Origin: Anaerolinea sp.
GTDB taxonomy: Bacteria > Chloroflexota > Limnocylindria > Limnocylindrales > CSP1-4
NCBI GenBank assembly: GCA_013822395.1
Contig: PNKK01000013.1
Location: 4,723 to 68,722 of the forward strand
Direction: 5' to 3'
Length of the DNA: 64,000 nt
The position numbers and the translations under genes are program-made. Shown one piece after another: positions 1,412 through 13,344 of the stretch (position 1 is its first letter; each line of letters starts with the position of its first letter). The notes below the pieces were generated by a model. It was not told the DNA's origin and searched no databases. It saw only the letters and a program-made list of their open reading frames with translations.

Positions 1412-1653
1412 CCGGCACGCGGCGGGGAGCCTCACCGGCGCGCTCCCCGGTCTGCCAGAGCCGCACACCGCGACCAGAGCCGCACACCGCGACATCGCGC
1501 AGCCCCATGCGAGGGGTATCCGGGGACCCGTCATGACAAACGGCCCTCGGTTATCATGTCAAACGGCCTGTCCCTGCGGCGGGCCGCCTTCGCGTCCCGC
1601 CGGACGGTCCGTCCCGCACCGCCGGTATCGTCAGCCCCATCCGAGGACACCCG

Positions 1654-2766
1654 ATGTCGAGTACCCCCAGGAAGCGCCCTGCGCCCGACGCCCTCGTCGC
1701 CGGTGCCGTCGTCGCCATCCTGATCGCGCTCGTCCTCGCCGTCTTTCTGAGCGGCTGGGGCGCCAGTCTCTATCCGCCCGAGGCGGCAACGTCACAGGGT
1801 CGCGAGATCCGGGGGCTGTACGACATCGTCTTCGCGGTCGCCATCGCCATCTTCGTGGTCGTCGAGGGCCTGATCGTCTGGAGCGTCCTGCGCTACCGAC
1901 GCCGGCCGGGTGACAACGAGCTCCCCGCGCAGACGCACGGGAACAACGTCGCCGAGGTCATCTGGACGCTCGTCCCGACGGTGATCGTCCTGTTCCTGTT
2001 CGTCATCTCGTGGCAGACCCTCAACAGCGTCGACGCCGTGAGCGCGCAGCCGGACGTCCGGATCCGTGCCATCGCCGGACAGTTCCAGTGGCAATTCGAG
2101 TACCTCGACGGCAACGGCACCAAGGTCGCGACCCAGCTCGCCCCGGAGTACAACCAGGACACCGGCGAGGGCGGCATGGCCGTCCCGGTGGGCCGGTCCG
2201 TCCAGGTCGCCCTGGACAGCCCGGACGTCATCCACGCGTTTTACGTGCCGAGATTCCTGTTCAAGCGGGACGTCGTTCCCGGTCAGACCAACCGGTTCGA
2301 GTTCACCGTGGATCCGAAGGAGGCCGGCCAGTTCTTCCGCGGGCAATGCGCCGAGCTGTGCGGCGCAGGCCACGGGTCGATGCTGTTCACCGTCCGTGCG
2401 CTGTCTCCGGCCGACTACGACACGTGGCTCCAGGCGCTCATCGCCAAGAGCAACGCCACGCCGGCGCCGCTTCCGAGTGGCACGGTCCTCAACGTCACCG
2501 CCAGAGAGATCGCGTTCGACACGAAGGCGCTCGAGGTCCCCGCGGACACGCCGTTCGCGATCGCCTTCCAGAACCAGGACCCGTCCGGCGTCACCCATGA
2601 CATCGACATCCGAGACGCGAACGGGAACGTCCTCGCGAACCAGGAGCCGATCAACGGCGGGACCTCGACGAACTATACGTACGAAGGTCTCCCGGCCGGG
2701 ACCTACACGTTCATCTGTGCCATCCATCCGATCCCGGCCATGACCGGGACGCTGACGGTCAAGTAA
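1654..2766 (+). CDS. ctaC: cytochrome c oxidase subunit II with fused C-terminal type-1-copper cupredoxin domain
   Basis: 370 aa. N-terminal TM helices. CuA site HAFYVP...CAELCGAGHGSM (CxExCx3Hx2M). An extra roughly 90-aa C-terminal domain carries H...C-x2-H-x4-M (VTHDIDI...FICAIHPIPAMTG), as in plastocyanin/amicyanin. Confidence 0.9.
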   Translation: MSSTPRKRPAPDALVAGAVVAILIALVLAVFLSGWGASLYPPEAATSQGREIRGLYDIVFAVAIAIFVVVEGLIVWSVLRYRRRPGDNELPAQTHGNNVAEVIWTLVPTVIVLFLFVISWQTLNSVDAVSAQPDVRIRAIAGQFQWQFEYLDGNGTKVATQLAPEYNQDTGEGGMAVPVGRSVQVALDSPDVIHAFYVPRFLFKRDVVPGQTNRFEFTVDPKEAGQFFRGQCAELCGAGHGSMLFTVRALSPADYDTWLQALIAKSNATPAPLPSGTVLNVTAREIAFDTKALEVPADTPFAIAFQNQDPSGVTHDIDIRDANGNVLANQEPINGGTSTNYTYEGLPAGTYTFICAIHPIPAMTGTLTVK

Positions 2767-2776
2767 GGAGCCCGGC

Positions 2777-4408
2777 ATGGCGACCCACGCCCTGGCCCCC
2801 GCCCCCGCGACTGCCTCCCGGGGCTGGCTCTACGAGTGGTTGACGACCACCGATCACAAGAAGATCGGGATCATGTACGTCATCAACTCGTTCATCTTCT
2901 TCCTGATCGGCGGCGTGCTGGCGCTCGTCGTCCGGGCGGAGCTCGCCCGGCCCGGCCTCCAGTTCCTCACCGACGAGCGCGTGTACAACCAGATGTTCAC
3001 GATGCACGCGACGTTGATGATCTTCCTGTTCGTCATCCCGATGCTGGCGGGTCTCGGCAACTACGCCGTCCCGCTGATGATCGGGGCGCCGGACATGGCG
3101 TTCCCGCGGATCAACGCCCTGTCGTTCTGGATACTGCCGCTCGGCGGGATCCTCATGATCTCCAGCTTCTTCACGGGCGGCGCGGCGGCGGCCGGCTGGA
3201 CGTCCTACCCGCCGCTCTCCGCGGAGGGTCCCCTCAACTCACCCGGCGCAGGGCAGGACCTGTGGATCGTGTCGCTCATCCTCATCGGGACCAGCTCCAT
3301 CCTCGGCGCGATCAACTTCCTCGTCACGATCTTCAAGATGCGCGCCCCGGGCATGACGCTCTTCCGGATGCCGATCATGGTCTGGACGATCCTCGTGACG
3401 AGCGTCCTGGTCCTCATGGCCACGCCGGTCATCACGAGCGCGCTCGTGATGCTGTTCATCGACCGGAACTATGGCGGCACCTTCTTCGACCCGTCCGGCG
3501 GCGGCAGCGCGATCCTCTACCAGAACATCTTCTGGTTCTACTCGCATCCGGCGGTCTACGTGATGATCCTGCCGGCGATGGGCGTGATCAGCGAGATCCT
3601 GCCCGTCTTCAGCCGGAAGCCCCTCTTCGGCTACAAGGCCTTCGTTTTCGCGACGGCGGCCATCGGCGCTCTCGGATTCTCCGTGTGGGCCCACCACATG
3701 TTCACCACCGGCTCGGTCTTCCTGCCGTTCTTCAGCCTCCTGACGTTCATGATCGCGGTCCCGACCGGCGTGAAGATGTTCAACTGGGTCTTCACGTTGT
3801 TCCGGGGTCAGCTGACGTTCTCGACGCCACTGATCTTCGCCATCGGGTTCCTGACGATGTTCCTCATCGGCGGGATCAACGGTGCCTTCAGCGCATCCGT
3901 CCCGGTCGACTTCGCACTCCACGACACGTACTGGATCGTCGCTCACATCCACTACGTGCTCTTCGGCGGTTCCGTCTTCGGGATCTTCGCGGGGCTCTAT
4001 TACTGGTTCCCCAAGATGACCGGCCGGATGCTGGACGAGGGCCTCGGCAAGATCCAGTTCGTCCTGATGTTCGTCGGATTCAACCTGACGTTCTTCCCGA
4101 TGCACATGCTCGGCATCCAGGGCATGCCGCGCCGCATCGCCGACTACGCCGCGGAAGCCGGCTGGAACGACTGGAACATGGCCGCGACCATCGGCGGGTT
4201 CGTGATCGCCGCCTCGATCCTCCCGTTCATCTGGAACGTCTTCGTGTCGCTCCGGGGCGGGAAGGTCGCCGGCGACGACCCCTGGGAGGCGAACACGCTC
4301 GAGTGGGCGACGTCCTCGCCGCCGCCGCCCTACAACTTCGACCAGCTGCCGGAGATCCGCTCCGAGCGGCCGCTGTTCGACGCCCGCCACGGGCGTGCCG
4401 GGCACTGA
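2777..4408 (+). CDS. ctaD: cytochrome c oxidase subunit I
   Basis: 543 aa, 12-TM pattern. Motifs WFYSHPAVYVMILP, WAHHMF, HDTYWIVAHIHYVLFGG. Confidence 0.95.
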   Translation: MATHALAPAPATASRGWLYEWLTTTDHKKIGIMYVINSFIFFLIGGVLALVVRAELARPGLQFLTDERVYNQMFTMHATLMIFLFVIPMLAGLGNYAVPLMIGAPDMAFPRINALSFWILPLGGILMISSFFTGGAAAAGWTSYPPLSAEGPLNSPGAGQDLWIVSLILIGTSSILGAINFLVTIFKMRAPGMTLFRMPIMVWTILVTSVLVLMATPVITSALVMLFIDRNYGGTFFDPSGGGSAILYQNIFWFYSHPAVYVMILPAMGVISEILPVFSRKPLFGYKAFVFATAAIGALGFSVWAHHMFTTGSVFLPFFSLLTFMIAVPTGVKMFNWVFTLFRGQLTFSTPLIFAIGFLTMFLIGGINGAFSASVPVDFALHDTYWIVAHIHYVLFGGSVFGIFAGLYYWFPKMTGRMLDEGLGKIQFVLMFVGFNLTFFPMHMLGIQGMPRRIADYAAEAGWNDWNMAATIGGFVIAASILPFIWNVFVSLRGGKVAGDDPWEANTLEWATSSPPPPYNFDQLPEIRSERPLFDARHGRAGH

Positions 4409-5051
4409 GGGAGAGCCGACGACCGTGACTGCCGACAGCCACGCCCTCGCGACCGCCGAGCACACTCCCATCGCGGGACTCGCCCACGACCGCCGCGGGA
4501 TCAGCAACCCGATCCTCGGGATGATCCTGTTCATCACCTCCGAGGTGATGTTCTTTGCCGGCCTCTTCGCCGCCTACTTCAGCACCCGCGCCGCGAACAG
4601 GCCCTGGCCACCGGAGGAGTTCGCGGACGTCCTCAACCCGTTCTCGGTCATCCTCGTCGCGACGGCCATCCTCATCGTGAGCTCGTTCACCTGCCAGCTC
4701 GCGATCCGTGCCATCCGGCGCGAGGATCGCCGTGGGTTCATCCGGAACATCGCCGTGACGTTCGTCCTTGGCATCGTCTTCCTCCTCCTCCAGGCGTACG
4801 ACTACAGCATCCTGTTCGAGGAGGGGATGACGATGGGGTCCGGCCCGTTCGGGACGACGTACTTCACGCTCACCGCCTTCCACGGCGCCCACGTCTTCGG
4901 CGGCGTGATCATGCTCGGGGTCATCCTGTATCGTGGCATGGCCGGCCAGTTCTCGGCCCGCCACCACGACGCGGTGGAGGCGACGTCCCTGTACTGGCAT
5001 TTCGTCGACGTGGTCTGGATCCTGCTCTTCTCGATCCTCTACTTCCTGTAA
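4395..5051 (+). CDS. ctaE: cytochrome c oxidase subunit III
   Basis: 218 aa polytopic membrane protein. ILFITSEVMFFAGLFAAYF and YWHFVDVVWILLF are subunit III signatures. Overlaps the ctaD stop. Start could be slightly downstream. Confidence 0.85.
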   Translation: MPGTEGEPTTVTADSHALATAEHTPIAGLAHDRRGISNPILGMILFITSEVMFFAGLFAAYFSTRAANRPWPPEEFADVLNPFSVILVATAILIVSSFTCQLAIRAIRREDRRGFIRNIAVTFVLGIVFLLLQAYDYSILFEEGMTMGSGPFGTTYFTLTAFHGAHVFGGVIMLGVILYRGMAGQFSARHHDAVEATSLYWHFVDVVWILLFSILYFL

Positions 5052-5064
5052 CGGGGCAGCGCGA

Positions 5065-5259
5065 ATGCATCCGATCCGGCATCCCCGCAACGTCGTCGTC
5101 ATCGGCGGTGCCTTCGTCATCGTCGCGGCGCTCTACGCGCTCGGCGCGGTACCGCTGGGCTACAACATCGAGTGGGCCGGGGTCACGATGCTCGCGGCCC
5201 TCGGCATCGCGATGTCGCTCATGGCGTACATCCTGATCGCCGGCTCGTCCAGGGACTGA
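5065..5259 (+). CDS. small two-TM membrane protein, possible oxidase subunit IV-like
   Basis: ATG at 5065 inside ORF 4933..5259 gives a 64-aa protein (MHPIRHPRNVVVIGGAFVIVAALYALG...) with two hydrophobic helices. The position after ctaE matches small oxidase subunits. No diagnostic motif. Confidence 0.4.
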   Translation: MHPIRHPRNVVVIGGAFVIVAALYALGAVPLGYNIEWAGVTMLAALGIAMSLMAYILIAGSSRD

Positions 5260-5275
5260 GGCCGCTCCGGGTCGC

Positions 5276-6343
5276 ATGGAAGGACTCTGGCAGTCGATTC
5301 TTGAGCTCATCTCCAGGCTCGTCATCCCCGACTGGGGCGAGCTGATCGGGCTGTTGCCGCTCGGGCTGGCCGGGCTCGTCGTGCTCTGGTTCACGTGGAC
5401 GATCCGCCGGTTCGCGACCGCCGGTCCCACGCGCCGCGCCCCCGCGCGGCTCACGCCGATCGCCCCGCCGGGCATCCACATGCCGGGCCCGTCCTACGCG
5501 CCCATCCTCGCCGCTGTTGGTTCCGCCGCGCTCTTGTGGGGCCTGGTGGTCGGCGGGAACGCGCTCCTCGTCGGGGCGACCATCCTCGTCTTCACGCTCC
5601 TGTACTGGGGCCGCGAGGCCATCCGCGACTACGACCATGCGACACACACGGAGACGCTCCCTGCGGTCGTCCACCCCGGCCCGCCGCCCGGGGTCCACAT
5701 GCCCGGCCCGTCGTTCCGGCCACTCCTCGGCGCGATCGGGGCGACCGCACTGATGGCCGGTCTCGTCGCGGGCGGCTGGGTCCTCGCCGCCGGCGCGATC
5801 ATCCTCGTCGTCACCCTGATCGGCTGGCTCGTCGATGCCCGGGAGGAGTACGGCAAGACGGAGAAGGCGGACCGGACCGGGCACCTCGAGAACATCCCCG
5901 CCCCCGGCTGGCCGCGCCGCCTCCTCCAGGGCATCGCGGTTGTCTTCGTCCTCGCGGTGCTCGTCCAGACCGGCGTCATCCCGCCCAGGGGCACGGACAC
6001 GACCGGGGGGGTCGAGAGCTCGCCTGCGCCGTCCGGTGGCGGCGGTGCACCAGGGACCGCCTTCACGGTCGTCGCGAAGGACATCGCCTTCGACGCGAGC
6101 ACCCTGGTCGTCCCGGCGAATACACCGTTCACGATCCAGTTCGAGAACCAGGACCCGTCGGGGGTGGTTCACGACATCGACATTCGAGCAGCGGACGGGA
6201 CGACCGTCGTCAAGGACCAGGAGATCGTGAACGGCGGCGTGTCGACGACCTACAGCTATGACGGACTGCCGGCCGGCGAATACATCTTCATCTGCTCGAT
6301 CCACCCCATCCCGCAAATGACCGGGACGCTCACCGTCAAGTAG
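5276..6343 (+). CDS. membrane protein with duplicated HMPGPS two-helix module and C-terminal type-1-copper cupredoxin domain
   Basis: 355 aa. N-terminal TM. Two copies of PPG(I/V)HMPGPS(Y/F)xP(I/L)L..G plus TM pairs. The C-terminal domain (FTIQFENQDPSGVVHDIDI...FICSIHPIPQMTGTLTVK) is closely paralogous to the ctaC C-terminus. Confidence 0.75.
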   Translation: MEGLWQSILELISRLVIPDWGELIGLLPLGLAGLVVLWFTWTIRRFATAGPTRRAPARLTPIAPPGIHMPGPSYAPILAAVGSAALLWGLVVGGNALLVGATILVFTLLYWGREAIRDYDHATHTETLPAVVHPGPPPGVHMPGPSFRPLLGAIGATALMAGLVAGGWVLAAGAIILVVTLIGWLVDAREEYGKTEKADRTGHLENIPAPGWPRRLLQGIAVVFVLAVLVQTGVIPPRGTDTTGGVESSPAPSGGGGAPGTAFTVVAKDIAFDASTLVVPANTPFTIQFENQDPSGVVHDIDIRAADGTTVVKDQEIVNGGVSTTYSYDGLPAGEYIFICSIHPIPQMTGTLTVK

Positions 6344-6403
6344 GGAGCCGGTCACGGCTGCTCGAATCGCTCCACGCCGCCGACACGACCGCGCGACCGC
6401 CCC

Positions 6404-9983: not shown

Positions 9984-10019
9984 CAAAGGACGCGGACACA
10001 CCCACGAAGCTGGCGCGCC

Positions 10020-10049
10020 TTGACAGAATCTAACACCGTGTTAGATTCT
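10020..10049 (+). promoter_or_regulatory. candidate leaderless promoter with embedded perfect 10-bp inverted repeat (operator)
   Basis: TTGACA (10020-10025), 16-nt spacer, TAGATT (10042-10047), then ATG at 10055 only 7 nt after the -10. AGAATCTAAC-accgt-GTTAGATTCT (10025-10049) is a perfect inverted repeat between the -35 and -10. Confidence 0.55.
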
Positions 10050-10054
10050 CGGAC

Positions 10055-10555
10055 ATGAGCGAGGTCATCTATGCTCGGGTCCCGTCGGAGCTGAAGGCAG
10101 CCGCGGACGAATACGCCCGCGAGAACGACCGCACGACCGCGTCCGCGTTGGCCGTCCTTATCGATCGAGGCCTCCGAACGACGTCAACGATCCGCGATCT
10201 CGAGCGTCGGGTCGTGGATCTCGAGGGCGAACTCGCCGCAGCGCGAGCGCGAGCAGGGGAGCACGAGGCGACCATCGTGGTCCTCCTGGAAAAGCAGAAG
10301 ACGCTCGAGAGTGCTTACCAGGCGCTCGCAGACCGGATGGGAAAGGGCCTGGGAAGATGCCCGGCATGCGAGGGGCCAGTCACCGGGCAGGACCTTCTCG
10401 TCTCGGGCCGGTGCCCGAACGCCGCGTGCCAGAAAGGACTCGCGTCCCTCCTCGTCTCGCAGCCAAAGGGCCTCGACGAGCGGGAGCTGCTTCTCCTGAT
10501 CGGGGCGCTCGGCCTCGTGCTGGGCATCGCCTTGATGCAGACCAAGAACGAATAG
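10055..10555 (+). CDS. ribbon-helix-helix / coiled-coil / zinc-ribbon protein with C-terminal TM anchor
   Basis: 166 aa. N-terminus VIYARVPSELKAAADEYARENDRTTASALAVLIDRGL resembles Arc/CopG RHH. Heptad-like helix follows. CPAC-x16-CPNAAC zinc ribbon. C-terminal LLLLIGALGLVLGIALM helix. Confidence 0.6.
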   Translation: MSEVIYARVPSELKAAADEYARENDRTTASALAVLIDRGLRTTSTIRDLERRVVDLEGELAAARARAGEHEATIVVLLEKQKTLESAYQALADRMGKGLGRCPACEGPVTGQDLLVSGRCPNAACQKGLASLLVSQPKGLDERELLLLIGALGLVLGIALMQTKNE

Positions 10556-10565
10556 GAGGCATCCC

Positions 10566-10694
10566 GTGAACCTGCGATCGCTCGCCTTTGCCATCCTGGT
10601 GATCCTCGCCGCGTCGGCCTGGGTCACCTATGCCAAGCGCCCGACGGCGCACAACCTGCGCCGGGCGGTCCGAGACACCGTGCCACTCCTGTGA
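10566..10694 (+). CDS. small single-TM protein (42 aa), hypothetical
   Basis: Not in the ORF track (too short). GTG at 10566 is preceded by AGGAGG (10554-10559) with a 6-nt spacer. Product VNLRSLAFAILVILAASAWVTYAK... has one TM helix. Confidence 0.35.
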   Translation: MNLRSLAFAILVILAASAWVTYAKRPTAHNLRRAVRDTVPLL

Positions 10695-10809
10695 TGACTC
10701 AATCCACAGCTGGCGAACCCCAGATTCGACGTTGTCCACCTCCGCCCCAGGGGTTTTCCCGCACCCAGTGCGGCTCCGGCCGAATCTCGTTGATGGCCTC
10801 CCAAGGCTG

Positions 10810-10871
10810 TCATTGACAATGATGTCATGATGCGAGATGGGGCTGACAATCGAACGCACGTTCGGTATCAT
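10810..10871 (+). promoter_or_regulatory. palindrome plus candidate leaderless promoter of the methyltransferase gene
   Basis: TCATTGaCAATGA palindrome (10810-10822). CTGACA (10843-10848), 17-nt spacer, TATCAT (10866-10871), then in-frame GTG at 10878 six nt downstream. Confidence 0.45.
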
Positions 10872-10877
10872 GCTGGC

Positions 10878-11966
10878 GTGAGCGACCTGCCAGCCATCAG
10901 CCTCTTCTCGGGCGTCGGGGGCCTCGACCTGGGCGTAGCCAGGGCTGGTTTCGACGTTCGGGTGGCTGTCGAGCTCGACCGCGATTCGGCTGCGAGCCTC
11001 CGTGCGAACCACTTCCCCGATCGCCAGGATGCCGTCTTCGAGCGATCGATCGTGGGCCTTGATGTGTCCGAGATCCTGGAGCGAGCAGGCCTGATGGCGG
11101 GCGAAGCAGCACTTGTGGTCGGCGGTCCCCCCTGCACCCCGTTCAGCAAATCGGGCAACTGGCTCGAGTACAAGCGGACGGGCAACGACCCCGACGCCTC
11201 GCTGCTGGACGAGTTCGCAAGGGTCGTCGAGGATGCCCGACCTGCGGCCGTCCTCATGGAGAATGTCTGGGGCCTTGCGTACAGGAACCACAACACAGTC
11301 CCGCTCTCCAGGCTCATGGACCGCCTGGAGGCAGTCGGCTACCGGGTCAGGTGGGAGGTGCTCAACGCGGCCGACTACGGGATCCCGCAACTCCGGAAGA
11401 GGCTGATCCTCTACGGGATGCTCGGCGAGGATCCTCCCGAACTGCCGAGGGCGACGCACTCTGGGTGGACTGAGACGAAGCGTGTCGTTGACCAAAACCT
11501 GCTCCCATACGTCACCAGCCGACAGGCGATCGGCGACCTCGAGCATCGCGACGACCTCGCGGAGACGGATGAGGAGGTCAACGGCCGGTATGGGCACCTG
11601 TTGCCGGAGATTCCGGCTGGGGACAACTACCTGTATTTCACCGAGAAGCGAGGGCACCCAGAGCCCTTGTTCAGGTGGCGAGGCCGCTACTGGACCTTCC
11701 TCCTGAAGCTGGACCCCGAGCGGCCCTCGACCACGATCCAAAGCCAGCCCGGTCCTTACATCGGTCCGTTCCATTGGAACGACCGGAGGCTCCGACTGCT
11801 GGAGGTCAAGCGACTGCAGACCTTCCCGGATGACTACGTAGTCGTCGCCCGCAACAGGCGGTCGTGGCAGAACCAGCTTGGCAACGCGGTCCCGCCGAGA
11901 CTGGCCGAGATCGTCGCGCGCCCGTTGGCAGACGCTCTTCGCTCGCGCCTGTTGGTGCCCACCTAA
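10878..11966 (+). CDS. DNA (cytosine-5)-methyltransferase
   Basis: Motif I LFSGVGGLDLG, motif IV GGPPCTPFS, motif VI ENV, QLRKRL, motif X GNAVPP. An alternative upstream start at 10827 (ORF track) is possible. Confidence 0.9.
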   Translation: MSDLPAISLFSGVGGLDLGVARAGFDVRVAVELDRDSAASLRANHFPDRQDAVFERSIVGLDVSEILERAGLMAGEAALVVGGPPCTPFSKSGNWLEYKRTGNDPDASLLDEFARVVEDARPAAVLMENVWGLAYRNHNTVPLSRLMDRLEAVGYRVRWEVLNAADYGIPQLRKRLILYGMLGEDPPELPRATHSGWTETKRVVDQNLLPYVTSRQAIGDLEHRDDLAETDEEVNGRYGHLLPEIPAGDNYLYFTEKRGHPEPLFRWRGRYWTFLLKLDPERPSTTIQSQPGPYIGPFHWNDRRLRLLEVKRLQTFPDDYVVVARNRRSWQNQLGNAVPPRLAEIVARPLADALRSRLLVPT

Positions 11967-11967
11967 G

Positions 11968-12666
11968 TCAAGCCTCCTCCTCGGCCACGACCCGCTCGGA
12001 CTCGGCTGCGTCTGGGGTCTTCTTGATCGGAAGAGATCGCCAGTACGCGTAGAAGTCGTCGATCGTGTCGAACGCGCCGCGCTCGGCCCGCAAGTCCGCG
12101 AGGGAGTCCATCGCGCCGATGTAGTTCCGCGTGGTGCTCGAGCGCTTCATGGACGCGACGCGCCACGTCTCGACGACGAGGATCTCGACGTTCTGGACGC
12201 CGCCGTCCACCCAGTCGTACAGGACGATCAGATCGATGTGCCACGCCATGTCGCCATAGGCAACGCCGACGCCCGGGATCGGTTCGGTGGGCCGTCTGAA
12301 GTAGGAGTCGAAGGGGCCGAGCGTGATCCGGGACTGCGTCCTGGTCGGCGCCCCGCCTCTCCTCATTTTGCGGCGCGCCACCTTCACGTCCAGGGCCACG
12401 CGGCGGTTGTCGACAGCGCGCCCCGTGAGAAGGACGTCCGGGTATCCCCGACCCGACAGATCGTCGAGGATGTCGAGACCGCGAACGGCATACGCCTTGC
12501 GCTTGAAGTGCTCCGTCACGGAGACCTCAACCACCTTCGCGACGACGGCGGGCTCCTTGGGCAGCGGGATCACACGTCCGTCATCGAGGATGATCCCGCG
12601 GACGTTCCAGTGATAGTCGTGGACGGCCGCCCTCAGCCATGCCTTGACGCCTTCGAGCGTGGTCAT
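11968..12666 (-). CDS. putative type II restriction endonuclease (PD-(D/E)XK)
   Basis: Convergent with and abutting the methyltransferase. GYPDVLL...ALDVKV fits PD...(D/E)xK. The ORF extends to 12780, but that part overlaps vsr, so the ATG at 12666 (MTTLEG...) or 12696 is preferred. Family not recognised. Confidence 0.55.
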   Translation of the reverse strand: MTTLEGVKAWLRAAVHDYHWNVRGIILDDGRVIPLPKEPAVVAKVVEVSVTEHFKRKAYAVRGLDILDDLSGRGYPDVLLTGRAVDNRRVALDVKVARRKMRRGGAPTRTQSRITLGPFDSYFRRPTEPIPGVGVAYGDMAWHIDLIVLYDWVDGGVQNVEILVVETWRVASMKRSSTTRNYIGAMDSLADLRAERGAFDTIDDFYAYWRSLPIKKTPDAAESERVVAEEEA

Positions 12667-12737
12667 GTCAGATGTCGCGCGTCCTCTCGCCACCATGCCG
12701 TGGAGAATAGCAGCGGGCCCAGTCGTACCATCCGGTC

Positions 12738-13220
12738 GTGCGCCTTCCCTACCCGAACCCATCGTCAGAGTCGGCGTCACGGGTCATGCGCGGCAACCGA
12801 GGATCCGGCACTGGGCCGGAGGTCCGGTTACGCTCGGCGCTGCACCGGGACGGACTGCGCTTCCGAACGGGTCTGCCGGTGCTCGCAGGCGACGTGCGGG
12901 TCCGGCCCGACGCCACGTTCACCCGCGCACGGCTTGCCGTCTTCGTCGATGGCTGCTACTGGCATCGATGTCCGGAACACGGAACGCGGCCGTCGGCCAA
13001 TGCCGCGTACTGGGGGCCGAAGCTCGACCGCAACGTAGACCGTGACCTCCGCGTCGACGCCGCGCTCGCCGGGGAGGGGTGGGCTGCGGTGAGGCTGTGG
13101 GAGCACGAGATCCAGGCAGACCTCGCCGAATGCGTCGGAAGGGTTCGGGCCGCCCTCAGGGTGAGGCCTGACCGATCGAGCCTCCTGAGGACGCCGCGTA
13201 CCCGTGACCGACCGCCATGA
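12738..13220 (+). CDS. vsr: very short patch repair endonuclease
   Basis: 160 aa. SxxMRGNRGSGTGPEVRLRSALHRDGLRFR, FVDGCYWHRCPEHG and NAAYWGPKLDRNVDRD are Vsr signatures. Confidence 0.9.
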   Translation: MRLPYPNPSSESASRVMRGNRGSGTGPEVRLRSALHRDGLRFRTGLPVLAGDVRVRPDATFTRARLAVFVDGCYWHRCPEHGTRPSANAAYWGPKLDRNVDRDLRVDAALAGEGWAAVRLWEHEIQADLAECVGRVRAALRVRPDRSSLLRTPRTRDRPP

Positions 13221-13269: not shown

Positions 13270-13344
13270 TGGTTGCGGGGAGGGGATTCGAACCCCTGAC
13301 CTTCGGGTTATGAGCCCGACGAGCTGCCGCTGCTCCACCCCGCG
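13270..13344 (-). tRNA. initiator tRNA-fMet (anticodon CAT), CCA encoded
   Basis: The reverse complement CGCGGGGTGGAGCAGCGGCAGCTCGTCGGGCTCATAACCCGAAGGTCAGGGGTTCGAATCCCCTCCCCGCAACCA folds as a 75-nt cloverleaf. It has the C1-A72 mismatch and three GC pairs in the anticodon stem, both initiator hallmarks. Confidence 0.95.

What the first reader, a model, noticed from the sequence alone, without database searches (positions are those of the whole stretch)
1654..6343. The aa3 oxidase operon carries two paralogous type-1-copper cupredoxin domains
Seen in sequence:
- Subunit II (CuA site intact) ends in an extra domain with H...C-x2-H-x4-M ligands (about 2491-2763).
- The last gene of the operon encodes a membrane protein ending in a domain of similar length and clearly related sequence, at both protein and nucleotide level (about 6077-6340). 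Compare FAIAFQNQDPSGVTHDIDIRDANG... with FTIQFENQDPSGVVHDIDIRAADG....

Established knowledge:
- caa3 oxidases fuse a cytochrome c domain to subunit II.
- Blue-copper proteins can act as electron donors to oxidases.

Inference: here tethered blue-copper domains may replace cytochrome c as the built-in electron entry. This would be a duplicated donor module within a single operon.
Basis: partly seen in the sequence, partly recalled or inferred. Interest (0 to 1): 0.6.

Follow-up and report, generated by a model that had tools for sequence, protein, structure and literature searches.

The report
Blue-copper domains tethered to a respiratory oxidase
A soil and freshwater bacterium (Chloroflexota, class Limnocylindria) has two related blue-copper domains fused to its oxygen-reducing oxidase, and relatives carry a third on the bc complex that feeds the oxidase, so tethered copper domains probably do the job that free or fused cytochrome c does elsewhere.

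Summary
Subunit II (CtaC, 1654-2766) has an intact CuA site and ends in a cupredoxin domain (about 2473-2763). The last operon gene (5276-6343) is a six-helix membrane protein ending in a paralogous domain (6056-6340). The two are 67% identical in protein and 72% in DNA.

Both domains keep invariant His/Cys/His/Met type-1 copper ligands in 37 and 40 homologues. Both are predicted to fold as cupredoxins closest to auracyanins. The CtaC fusion is present in 58 of 62 species-representative Limnocylindria loci and in independent assemblies, so it is not an assembly error.

Cytochrome c is not absent. In related genomes the bc-type complex III operon ends in a membrane-anchored monohaem cytochrome c fused to a third paralogous cupredoxin. 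It co-occurs with the oxidase operon in at least 17 genomes.

The best model is a fully tethered relay in a single-membrane cell: Rieske, haem c, Cu (bc), Cu (CtaF-like and/or CtaC), CuA. The oxidase is A2-type, the class that includes the caa3 oxidases of Thermus and Rhodothermus. Similar CtaC-cupredoxin fusions occur in many Actinomycetota genomes assembled from metagenomes. I found no prior description. Copper binding and electron transfer are untested.

The parts
1654..2766 (+). ctaC: oxidase subunit II (370 aa) with three N-terminal helices, a CuA domain and a C-terminal cupredoxin
   Evidence: Pfam COX2_TM, COX2 and Cupredoxin_1; TIGR02866 scores 177.5 against cut-off 147.7. The AF2 model has pLDDT 81.6 and pTM 0.73. 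Its N-terminal part best matches mycobacterial CtaC, Thermus caa3 subunit II and Paracoccus subunit II. CuA ligands and the entry Trp146 are invariant in 37 homologues.
2473..2763 (+). Cupredoxin domain 1 (CtaC residues 274-370), with type-1 copper ligands H315, C355, H358 and M363
   Evidence: PF13473 E 1.5e-12. The ligands are invariant in 37 homologues. The domain is all-beta with pLDDT 85-96. The closest solved sequences are auracyanin B and A.
2777..4408 (+). ctaD: oxidase subunit I (543 aa), A2-type
   Evidence: PF00115 E 8e-165; TIGR02891 scores 723.8 against cut-off 670.75. The motif FWFYSHPAVY at residue 257 is the Tyr-Ser signature of A2 enzymes in place of the A1 Glu (the classification is from established knowledge).
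4425..5051 (+). ctaE: oxidase subunit III (208 aa by the public gene call; the longest ORF starts at 4395)
   Evidence: PF00510 E 3e-39. Gene call taken from the near-identical contigs L002 and L003.
5065..5259 (+). 64-aa protein with two transmembrane helices, probably the N-terminal half of an actinobacterial-type subunit IV (CtaF)
   Evidence: It is called as a gene and conserved in position in L002-L005. Alone it gives only a weak match to M. tuberculosis CtaF (E 0.57). Joined to hairpin 2 of the next gene it matches PF12270 over profile positions 13-125 of 132, at 34.7 bits against cut-off 26.9.
5276..6343 (+). Last gene (355 aa): six-helix membrane protein with two repeats of a CtaF-like hairpin (PPG[IV]HMPGPS...), a flexible Gly/Ser/Pro linker and a C-terminal cupredoxin
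   Evidence: PF12270 29.3 bits and PF13473 44.4 bits. AF2 helices at 20-48, 75-92, 95-123, 148-165, 168-201 and 216-232. The loop 42-74 has 5 K+R and 0 D+E, which implies N-terminus out and C-terminus out. It is conserved with the same architecture in more than 120 clusters and 80 species loci.
6056..6340 (+). Cupredoxin domain 2 (last-gene residues 261-355), with type-1 copper ligands H299, C340, H343 and M348
   Evidence: The ligands are invariant in 40 homologues. The best Foldseek matches are auracyanins 6kol (E 5e-5), 1qhq and 2aan. A profile search also puts auracyanin A and B on top.

Best explanation
The operon encodes an A2-type haem-copper oxygen reductase of a single-membrane Chloroflexota bacterium (class Limnocylindria, also called Ellin6529).

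Its electron entry is built from tethered type-1 (blue) copper cupredoxin domains instead of a fused or free cytochrome c.
- One domain sits directly behind the CuA domain of subunit II on a short linker.
- A paralogous one hangs on a flexible linker from a CtaF-like membrane subunit.

In related genomes the bc-type complex III ends in a membrane-anchored monohaem cytochrome c that carries a third paralogous cupredoxin.

The proposed path is: menaquinol, Rieske centre, haem c, Cu(bc), Cu(CtaF-like) and/or Cu(CtaC), CuA, haem a, haem a3-CuB.

Shown here:
- the domain architecture
- ligand conservation
- the predicted fold
- outward topology
- conservation of the fusions
- co-occurrence with the bc fusion.

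Inferred, not shown:
- copper occupancy
- the order of the steps
- whether the complexes form a supercomplex
- that the window's own genome carries the bc fusion.
For: Nature of the domains:
- The two domains are paralogous (E 1e-39).
- The His/Cys/His/Met ligands are invariant in both.
- The fold is a cupredoxin nearest to auracyanins, which are known electron carriers of Chloroflexota (PMC10873879).

The oxidase:
- CuA ligands and the canonical electron-entry Trp146 are invariant.
- Subunit I has the A2 YSHPxV signature.
- Subunit II has no CxxCH.
- Topology places both domains outside the membrane.

Conservation of the fusion:
- It is present in more than 120 clusters each for CtaC and the last gene.
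- 58 of 62 species-representative loci carry the CtaC fusion.
- Independent metagenome contigs span the junction with no differences.
- The duplication is old and is not being homogenised. Same-contig pairs are 45-67% identical and the two types mostly separate in a tree.

The bc partner:
- The cytochrome c-cupredoxin protein is the last gene of a cyt b / subunit IV / Rieske operon.
- Its CxxCH and type-1 copper ligands are invariant.
- It shares the assembly with the oxidase operon in 17 genomes, and in two cases the same contig.

Context:
- The lineage is inferred to have a single membrane (10.1101/2021.08.23.457424), where carriers must be tethered.
- Actinobacteria solve the same problem with a dihaem QcrC (PMC8361435).
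Against: - No experiment shows copper binding, a redox potential or electron transfer.
- PF00127 (plastocyanin/azurin) scores fall just below its gathering cut-off (20.3 and 18.7 against 21.2).
- The bc fusion was shown in relatives, not in the 64-kb window's own genome.
- Four related genomes lack the CtaC copy, so that copy is dispensable and its role may differ from that of the last-gene copy.
- A whole-genome census of other cytochromes c and free cupredoxins could not be made. Many stand-alone homologues of the domain exist in metagenomes and could be the real mobile carriers.
Confidence: 0.6

Rival explanations
1. The tethered cupredoxins are entry ports for donors other than the bc complex. 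Candidates are free or anchored cupredoxins, periplasmic dehydrogenases, or extracellular Fe(II) or Mn(II). On this reading the two copies serve different donors.
For: - The same module is common as a stand-alone 120-200 aa protein and in tandem arrays of up to 15 copies.
- The two oxidase copies have diverged to 45-67% identity.
- Blue copper proteins take electrons from Fe(II) in acidophiles (rusticyanin, sulfocyanin; PMC10654088).
- One related genome comes from a manganese-oxidising enrichment (L119 title).
Against: - The bc complex itself carries the same module and co-occurs with the oxidase operon in every genome where both could be checked.
- No dehydrogenase or metal-oxidation gene is conserved beside the operon.
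Confidence: 0.2
2. The domains are copper chaperones, copper stores or assembly factors for CuA or CuB, or they act in copper or iron handling like the Cupredoxin_1 domains of EfeO and FtrB. On this reading they are not electron carriers.
For: - PF13473 also covers EfeO-type domains.
- Foldseek lists FtrB (8vuk), EfeO (7wgu) and the B. anthracis Cupredoxin_1 protein (4hcf) among the matches.
- Relatives have CtaG and a redoxin next to the operon.
Against: - A complete, invariant Cys/His/His/Met set with a plastocyanin-length loop is the signature of a redox type-1 site, not of a chaperone.
- The best sequence and fold matches are auracyanins and plastocyanins.
- The same module sits on the cytochrome c of complex III, where a chaperone role makes little sense.
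Confidence: 0.07
3. The domains are mainly structural. They glue complex III to complex IV, or oxidase dimers together, and their copper sites are not on the main electron path.
For: - Paralogous domains on both complexes could pair with one another.
- Actinobacterial supercomplexes share intertwined subunits (PMC8361435).
Against: Strict conservation of all four ligands in three families over deep divergence points to selection on the metal site itself.
Confidence: 0.05
4. The fusion is an artefact: a missed stop codon, a frameshift or a chimeric assembly.
For: The window comes from a metagenome assembly.
Against: - The same reading frame and length occur in hundreds of independent clusters and 58 species genomes.
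- Two near-identical contigs from other samples have the same gene calls.
- Contigs of independent runs cross the junction with no differences.
Confidence: 0.01

Closest known systems
caa3-type (A2) cytochrome c oxidases of Thermus thermophilus and Rhodothermus marinus
   Same: - A2-type subunit I (YSHPxV).
- Subunit II carries a covalently tethered one-electron donor domain C-terminal to the CuA domain.
- Thermus subunit II (2yev_B) is among the best fold matches for the N-terminal part.
   Different: - The tethered domain is a blue-copper cupredoxin, not a CxxCH cytochrome c.
- A second copy sits on another subunit.
Actinobacterial bcc-aa3 supercomplex (Mycobacterium, Corynebacterium; dihaem QcrC, subunit CtaF)
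   Same: - A single-membrane cell with no free carrier, in which complex III carries the final donor on a membrane-anchored subunit.
- The best structural match of CtaC is mycobacterial CtaC (7e1v_E).
- CtaF-like membrane elements are present.
   Different: - The second haem c domain of QcrC is replaced by a cupredoxin.
- CtaF is split, partly duplicated and fused to a cupredoxin.
- Cytochrome b is split in the b6 / subunit IV manner.
- The NCBIfam actinobacterial aa3 models score below their cut-offs.
Auracyanins of Chloroflexus and Roseiflexus
   Same: - They are the closest solved relatives by sequence (E 3e-5; 1e-8 with a profile) and by fold.
- They are blue copper carriers on the outer face of the membrane in the same phylum (PMC10873879).
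   Different: - Auracyanins are separate, anchored proteins of about 140 aa.
- They are reduced by alternative complex III.
- Here the module is fused to oxidase and bc subunits, and the partner is a Rieske/cytochrome b complex.
Sulfocyanin (SoxE) in the archaeal SoxM supercomplex; halocyanin with the ba3 oxidase of haloarchaea
   Same: A blue copper protein stands in for cytochrome c between a Rieske/cytochrome b module and a CuA-containing oxidase. Sulfocyanin is a subunit of the complex (own knowledge; PMC10654088).
   Different: - Those are separate polypeptides of another cupredoxin family. PF06525 is not matched by the window proteins.
- They are archaeal.
- They show no triple use of one paralogous module.

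Membership tests
Type-1 (blue) copper cupredoxins (plastocyanin / azurin / auracyanin kind) | Greek-key beta-sandwich cupredoxin fold | tested here: met
   The AF2 domains are all-beta, with pLDDT 85-96 in CtaC and 73-85 in the last gene. Foldseek top hits are auracyanins 6kol, 1qhq and 2aan.
Type-1 (blue) copper cupredoxins (plastocyanin / azurin / auracyanin kind) | Ligand set: one upstream His plus Cys-x(n)-His-x(n)-Met in the C-terminal loop | tested here: met
   H315/C355/H358/M363 and H299/C340/H343/M348 are invariant in 37 and 40 homologues. The window has C-x2-H-x4-M, as in plastocyanin.
Type-1 (blue) copper cupredoxins (plastocyanin / azurin / auracyanin kind) | Curated family model above its cut-off | tested here: inconclusive
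   PF13473 Cupredoxin_1 is well above its cut-off (47.9 and 44.4 against 27). PF00127 Copper-bind is just below (20.3 and 18.7 against 21.2).
Type-1 (blue) copper cupredoxins (plastocyanin / azurin / auracyanin kind) | Binds one copper, with an intense band near 600 nm, small A-parallel in EPR and reversible one-electron redox chemistry | not testable with these tools
   Needs expressed protein.
A-family haem-copper oxygen reductase, subtype A2 | Subunit I and II equivalog models above cut-off, with the CuA ligands present | tested here: met
   TIGR02891 scores 723.8 against 670.75 and TIGR02866 scores 177.5 against 147.7. The H...CxExCxxxHxxM ligands are invariant.
A-family haem-copper oxygen reductase, subtype A2 | Helix VI motif YSHPxV instead of GHPEV | tested here: met
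   FWFYSHPAVY at CtaD residue 257.
caa3 oxidase | Cytochrome c domain (CxxCH) fused to the C-terminus of subunit II | tested here: not met
   No CxxCH occurs in CtaC or in any high-GC3 ORF of the window. The C-terminal domain is a cupredoxin.
Actinobacterial aa3 oxidase (NCBIfam NF050116, NF050117, NF050119) | Scores above the curated cut-offs | tested here: not met
   Scores are 733.5 against 880, 202 against 250 and 165.4 against 190.
Actinobacterial oxidase subunit IV, CtaF (PF12270) | Full-length match to the four-helix subunit | tested here: inconclusive
   The last gene matches only profile positions 83-125 (29.3 bits). The 64-aa ORF joined to one hairpin matches positions 13-125 of 132 at 34.7 bits against 26.9. 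The PDB match of the small ORF to M. tuberculosis CtaF is weak (E 0.57).
Auracyanin | A separate, anchored protein reduced by alternative complex III | tested here: not met
   The module is fused to CtaC and to a CtaF-like protein. The upstream complex in relatives is Rieske / cytochrome b, not alternative complex III.

The most novel reading that the evidence does not exclude
Limnocylindria, and possibly many uncultured Actinomycetota, run an obligate complex III - complex IV unit wired by a chain of paralogous tethered blue-copper domains. One sits on the cytochrome c subunit of the bc complex, one on a CtaF-like oxidase subunit and one on subunit II. Electrons would then hop Cu to Cu to CuA with no diffusible carrier. 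This would be a copper counterpart of the actinobacterial dihaem QcrC bridge, and it would have arisen by repeated duplication and fusion of one module.
Probability: 0.35. Interest if true: 0.75.

Novelty: new variant of a known kind. Interest (0 to 1): 0.62.

Why it matters
[quoted passage not shown] The known answers use haem: fused cytochrome c in caa3 oxidases, and the dihaem QcrC in actinobacterial supercomplexes.

Here one blue-copper module appears to have been copied onto both complexes. That would be a copper-based answer to the same problem.

- Limnocylindria occur widely in soil and freshwater metagenomes, and runs holding this operon come from freshwater, biofilm, soil and drinking water.
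- Similar fusions occur in many Actinomycetota genomes.
- The idea is directly testable with small soluble domains.
- It bears on the copper demand of soil respiration, on the evolution of electron-carrier choice, and on how oxidase genes are annotated. These proteins are now simply named 'cytochrome c oxidase subunit II' and 'cupredoxin domain-containing protein' or 'plastocyanin'.

Tried and rejected
Searches that gave little or nothing:
- An exact look-up of the last gene found nothing, because public copies differ by about 1% (the closest, P0121, is 99% identical).
- A single-protein genome scan found only one locus, so alignments were used instead.
- Seven literature searches returned no description of a subunit II-cupredoxin or cytochrome c-cupredoxin fusion. 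They covered Limnocylindria, Ellin6529, CtaC with cupredoxin, fused blue copper with subunit II, and type 1 copper with caa3. Papers that looked promising were unrelated.
- Cluster names for divergent fusions were uninformative.
- The promoter and terminator scan gave nothing above shuffles.
- Rfam found no RNA element in or before the operon.

Ideas rejected:
- Assembly error.
- Recent duplication or gene conversion. Identity at third codon positions is only 0.56, and same-contig pairs are no closer than cross-genome pairs.
- A PCuAC, EfeO or FtrB-type function, because the full Cys/His/His/Met set is present.
- The view that cytochrome c is absent from these organisms.

Not possible with these tools:
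- Measuring Cu-to-CuA distances, because model coordinates are not exposed.
- Modelling the multi-subunit complex.
- A whole-genome census of cytochromes c.

Full report
**What is there.** The plus strand carries a tight five-gene operon with gaps of 10, 16, 13 and 16 bp:
- ctaC, 1654-2766.
- ctaD, 2777-4408.
- ctaE, 4425-5051.
- A 64-aa ORF, 5065-5259.
- A 355-aa gene, 5276-6343.

The same gene calls stand on two near-identical public contigs from other samples. The long minus-strand ORFs over the region are mirror-frame artefacts of 70% G+C DNA, since GC3 of 0.91-0.96 marks the plus-strand genes.

Pfam and NCBIfam identify the proteins as follows:
- Subunit II: COX2_TM, COX2, and TIGR02866 above its cut-off.
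- Subunit I: TIGR02891 above its cut-off.
- Subunit III.

Subunit I has FWFYSHPAVY, the Tyr-Ser signature of A2-type enzymes. That is the subclass of the caa3 oxidases of Thermus and Rhodothermus (own knowledge). 'aa3' is an assumption, because haem types cannot be read from sequence.

**The observation.** CtaC continues past its CuA domain into a Cupredoxin_1 domain (residues 274-369). The last gene ends in another (residues 261-354).
- The two are 67% identical over 93 residues, E 1e-39.
- They are 72% identical in DNA, with third codon positions at only 0.56.
- There is no third copy in the window.
- Both carry His...Cys-x2-His-x4-Met.
- In alignments of 37 CtaC and 40 last-gene homologues all four ligands are invariant. 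So are the CuA ligands and Trp146, the canonical electron-entry residue of subunit II.

**Fold and nearest relatives.**
- The CtaC model is confident (pLDDT 81.6, pTM 0.73; C-terminal domain 85-96) and all-beta.
- Its N-terminal 265 residues match mycobacterial CtaC, Thermus caa3 subunit II and Paracoccus subunit II.
- The last-gene model is weaker overall (pLDDT 63.6). It still shows six helices and a beta domain at 73-85.
- That beta domain best matches the auracyanins 6kol, 1qhq and 2aan, followed by other cupredoxins.
- By sequence, auracyanins B and A are also the closest solved proteins: E 3e-5 with one sequence and 1e-8 with a profile.

**Topology.**
- In CtaC a positively charged N-terminus and three helices put the CuA and cupredoxin domains outside.
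- In the last gene the loop after helix 1 has five Arg/Lys and no acidic residue, which puts it on the cytoplasmic side.
- With six helices, the Gly/Ser/Pro linker and the cupredoxin therefore lie outside.

**The last gene is a remodelled subunit IV.**
- It matches the C-terminal hairpin of actinobacterial CtaF (PF12270, 29.3 bits), and it contains that hairpin twice (PPG[IV]HMPGPS...).
- The 64-aa ORF looks like the missing N-terminal half. Joined to one hairpin, it matches PF12270 over positions 13-125 of 132 at 34.7 bits.
- Alone, the 64-aa ORF gives only a weak hit to M. tuberculosis CtaF.
- A shorter public form with a single hairpin exists (P0263).

**Not an artefact, and old.**
- The organism belongs to Chloroflexota class Limnocylindria (Ellin6529), judged from the names of homologues.
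- More than 120 clusters each, down to about 60-65% identity, keep both architectures.
- Among 62 species-representative loci that include ctaC, 58 have the fusion.
- The other four have a short CtaC ending in a Pro/Ser/Thr-rich tail and keep only the last-gene domain.
- Contigs from independent runs cross the COX2-cupredoxin junction without a difference.
- One run labelled 'RNA?' holds pieces of the operon.
- Domains from the same contig are 45-67% identical, no closer than domains from different genomes. The two types mostly separate in a tree.

So the duplication predates the radiation sampled here and both copies are maintained.

**Where the electrons come from.** A library-wide search with the domain found 1628 clusters. 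They fall into several kinds:
- Stand-alone proteins of 120-200 aa.
- Tandem arrays of up to 15 copies.
- Subunit II with one or two copies.
- A cytochrome c-cupredoxin fusion (P0299).

The cytochrome c-cupredoxin fusion is a large family of about 340-390 aa proteins, and many members are named as Limnocylindrales. Each has:
- one membrane anchor
- one CxxCH
- a flexible linker
- a cupredoxin with invariant His/Cys/His/Met.

In two genomes it is the last gene of an operon with a b6-type cytochrome b, subunit IV and a Rieske protein (CPHLGC...CPCHGS).

Genome scans list this gene and the oxidase last gene in the same assembly 17 times, twice on the same contig. All four genomes with the short CtaC also have it. 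Within one genome the three domains are 45-52% identical to each other.

**Mechanism proposed.** The lineage is inferred to have a single membrane, so carriers must stay attached. I propose a tethered relay in this order:
- Rieske centre.
- Haem c.
- Cu on the bc subunit, which swings on its linker.
- Cu on the CtaF-like subunit (also swinging) and/or Cu on CtaC (short linker, next to CuA).
- CuA, entered through the conserved Trp.

This parallels the dihaem QcrC bridge of actinobacterial supercomplexes (PMC8361435) and the fused cytochrome c of caa3 enzymes, with blue copper in place of haem. It is in line with auracyanin use elsewhere in the phylum (PMC10873879).

The architecture and its conservation are shown. 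Copper occupancy, potentials, the order of steps and supercomplex formation are inferred.

The domains are plausible built-in electron entries. They do not replace the c-type haem of complex III, and the module is used three times across two operons.

**Breadth.** Relatives of a subunit II with two cupredoxins occur in many Actinomycetota metagenome-assembled genomes. Labels include Jatrophihabitans, Nocardioides, Streptosporangiaceae, Acidimicrobiia and Gaiellaceae, with 318 matching stretches in all. One such locus contains:
- CopC/CopD
- CtaC with two cupredoxins
- CtaD
- a further 182-aa cupredoxin protein
- CtaB
- a thioredoxin-Sco fusion.

**Novelty.** Seven full-text searches found no description of these fusions. 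I rate this a new variant of a known kind: a tethered-donor oxidase, with blue copper as the donor.

**Limits.**
- The bc fusion was not shown in the window's own genome.
- No coordinates or multimer models were available.
- No genome-wide census of cytochromes c was possible.

Noticed in passing
window 9984-13218 (tRNA-Met at 13270-13344, minus strand): A 3.2-kb insertion is absent from a 99.8%-identical public contig (L002). It carries a ribbon-helix-helix-like ORF, a C-5 cytosine DNA methylase (PF00145) and an EcoRV-like restriction endonuclease (PF09233), and it lies next to a tRNA-Met gene. It looks like a mobile type II restriction-modification cassette that differs between strains.
   Followed up: partly
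L004 5139-6188 and 11127-11651; L005 5107-6201 and 11152-11622; compare window 1412-1653 and 6344-6403: Related Limnocylindria have a Caa3_CtaG assembly gene (minus strand) just upstream of ctaC and an AhpC-TSA/redoxin gene just after the last gene. The window and its near-identical contigs lack both at these positions.
   Followed up: no
L135, L138, L140, L152 (ctaC upstream of the last gene): Four species-representative genomes have a short CtaC of 287-293 aa ending in a Pro/Ser/Thr/Ala-rich tail with no cupredoxin. They keep the last-gene cupredoxin and the bc cytochrome c-cupredoxin. This is either domain loss or the state before fusion.
   Followed up: partly
L006 4055-5890 and L007 4068-5903: A 611-aa protein with 4Fe-4S ferredoxin and Pyr_redox_2 (GltD-like flavoprotein) domains overlaps the start of the cytochrome b gene by 4 bp in the bc operon. 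It could be an unusual extra subunit or electron input of this complex III.
   Followed up: no
proteins P0359 (1731 aa), P0282 (1390 aa), P0241 (447 aa): The same cupredoxin module occurs in membrane-anchored proteins with 3 to 15 tandem copies. These might act as long multi-copper electron conduits.
   Followed up: no
L169 4028-12985: An uncultured Actinomycetota genome has an analogous operon: CopC/CopD (divergent), CtaC with two cupredoxins (454 aa), CtaD, a separate 182-aa cupredoxin protein, CtaB (UbiA) and a thioredoxin-Sco fusion.
   Followed up: partly
window 5276-6343, residues 60-120 and 133-190: The last gene contains an internal duplication of the CtaF-like hairpin (PPGIHMPGPS... 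and PPGVHMPGPS...) with invariant His68, His141 and His203 in cytoplasmic loops. A single-hairpin form (P0263, 282 aa) also exists. The role of these conserved histidines is unknown.
   Followed up: no
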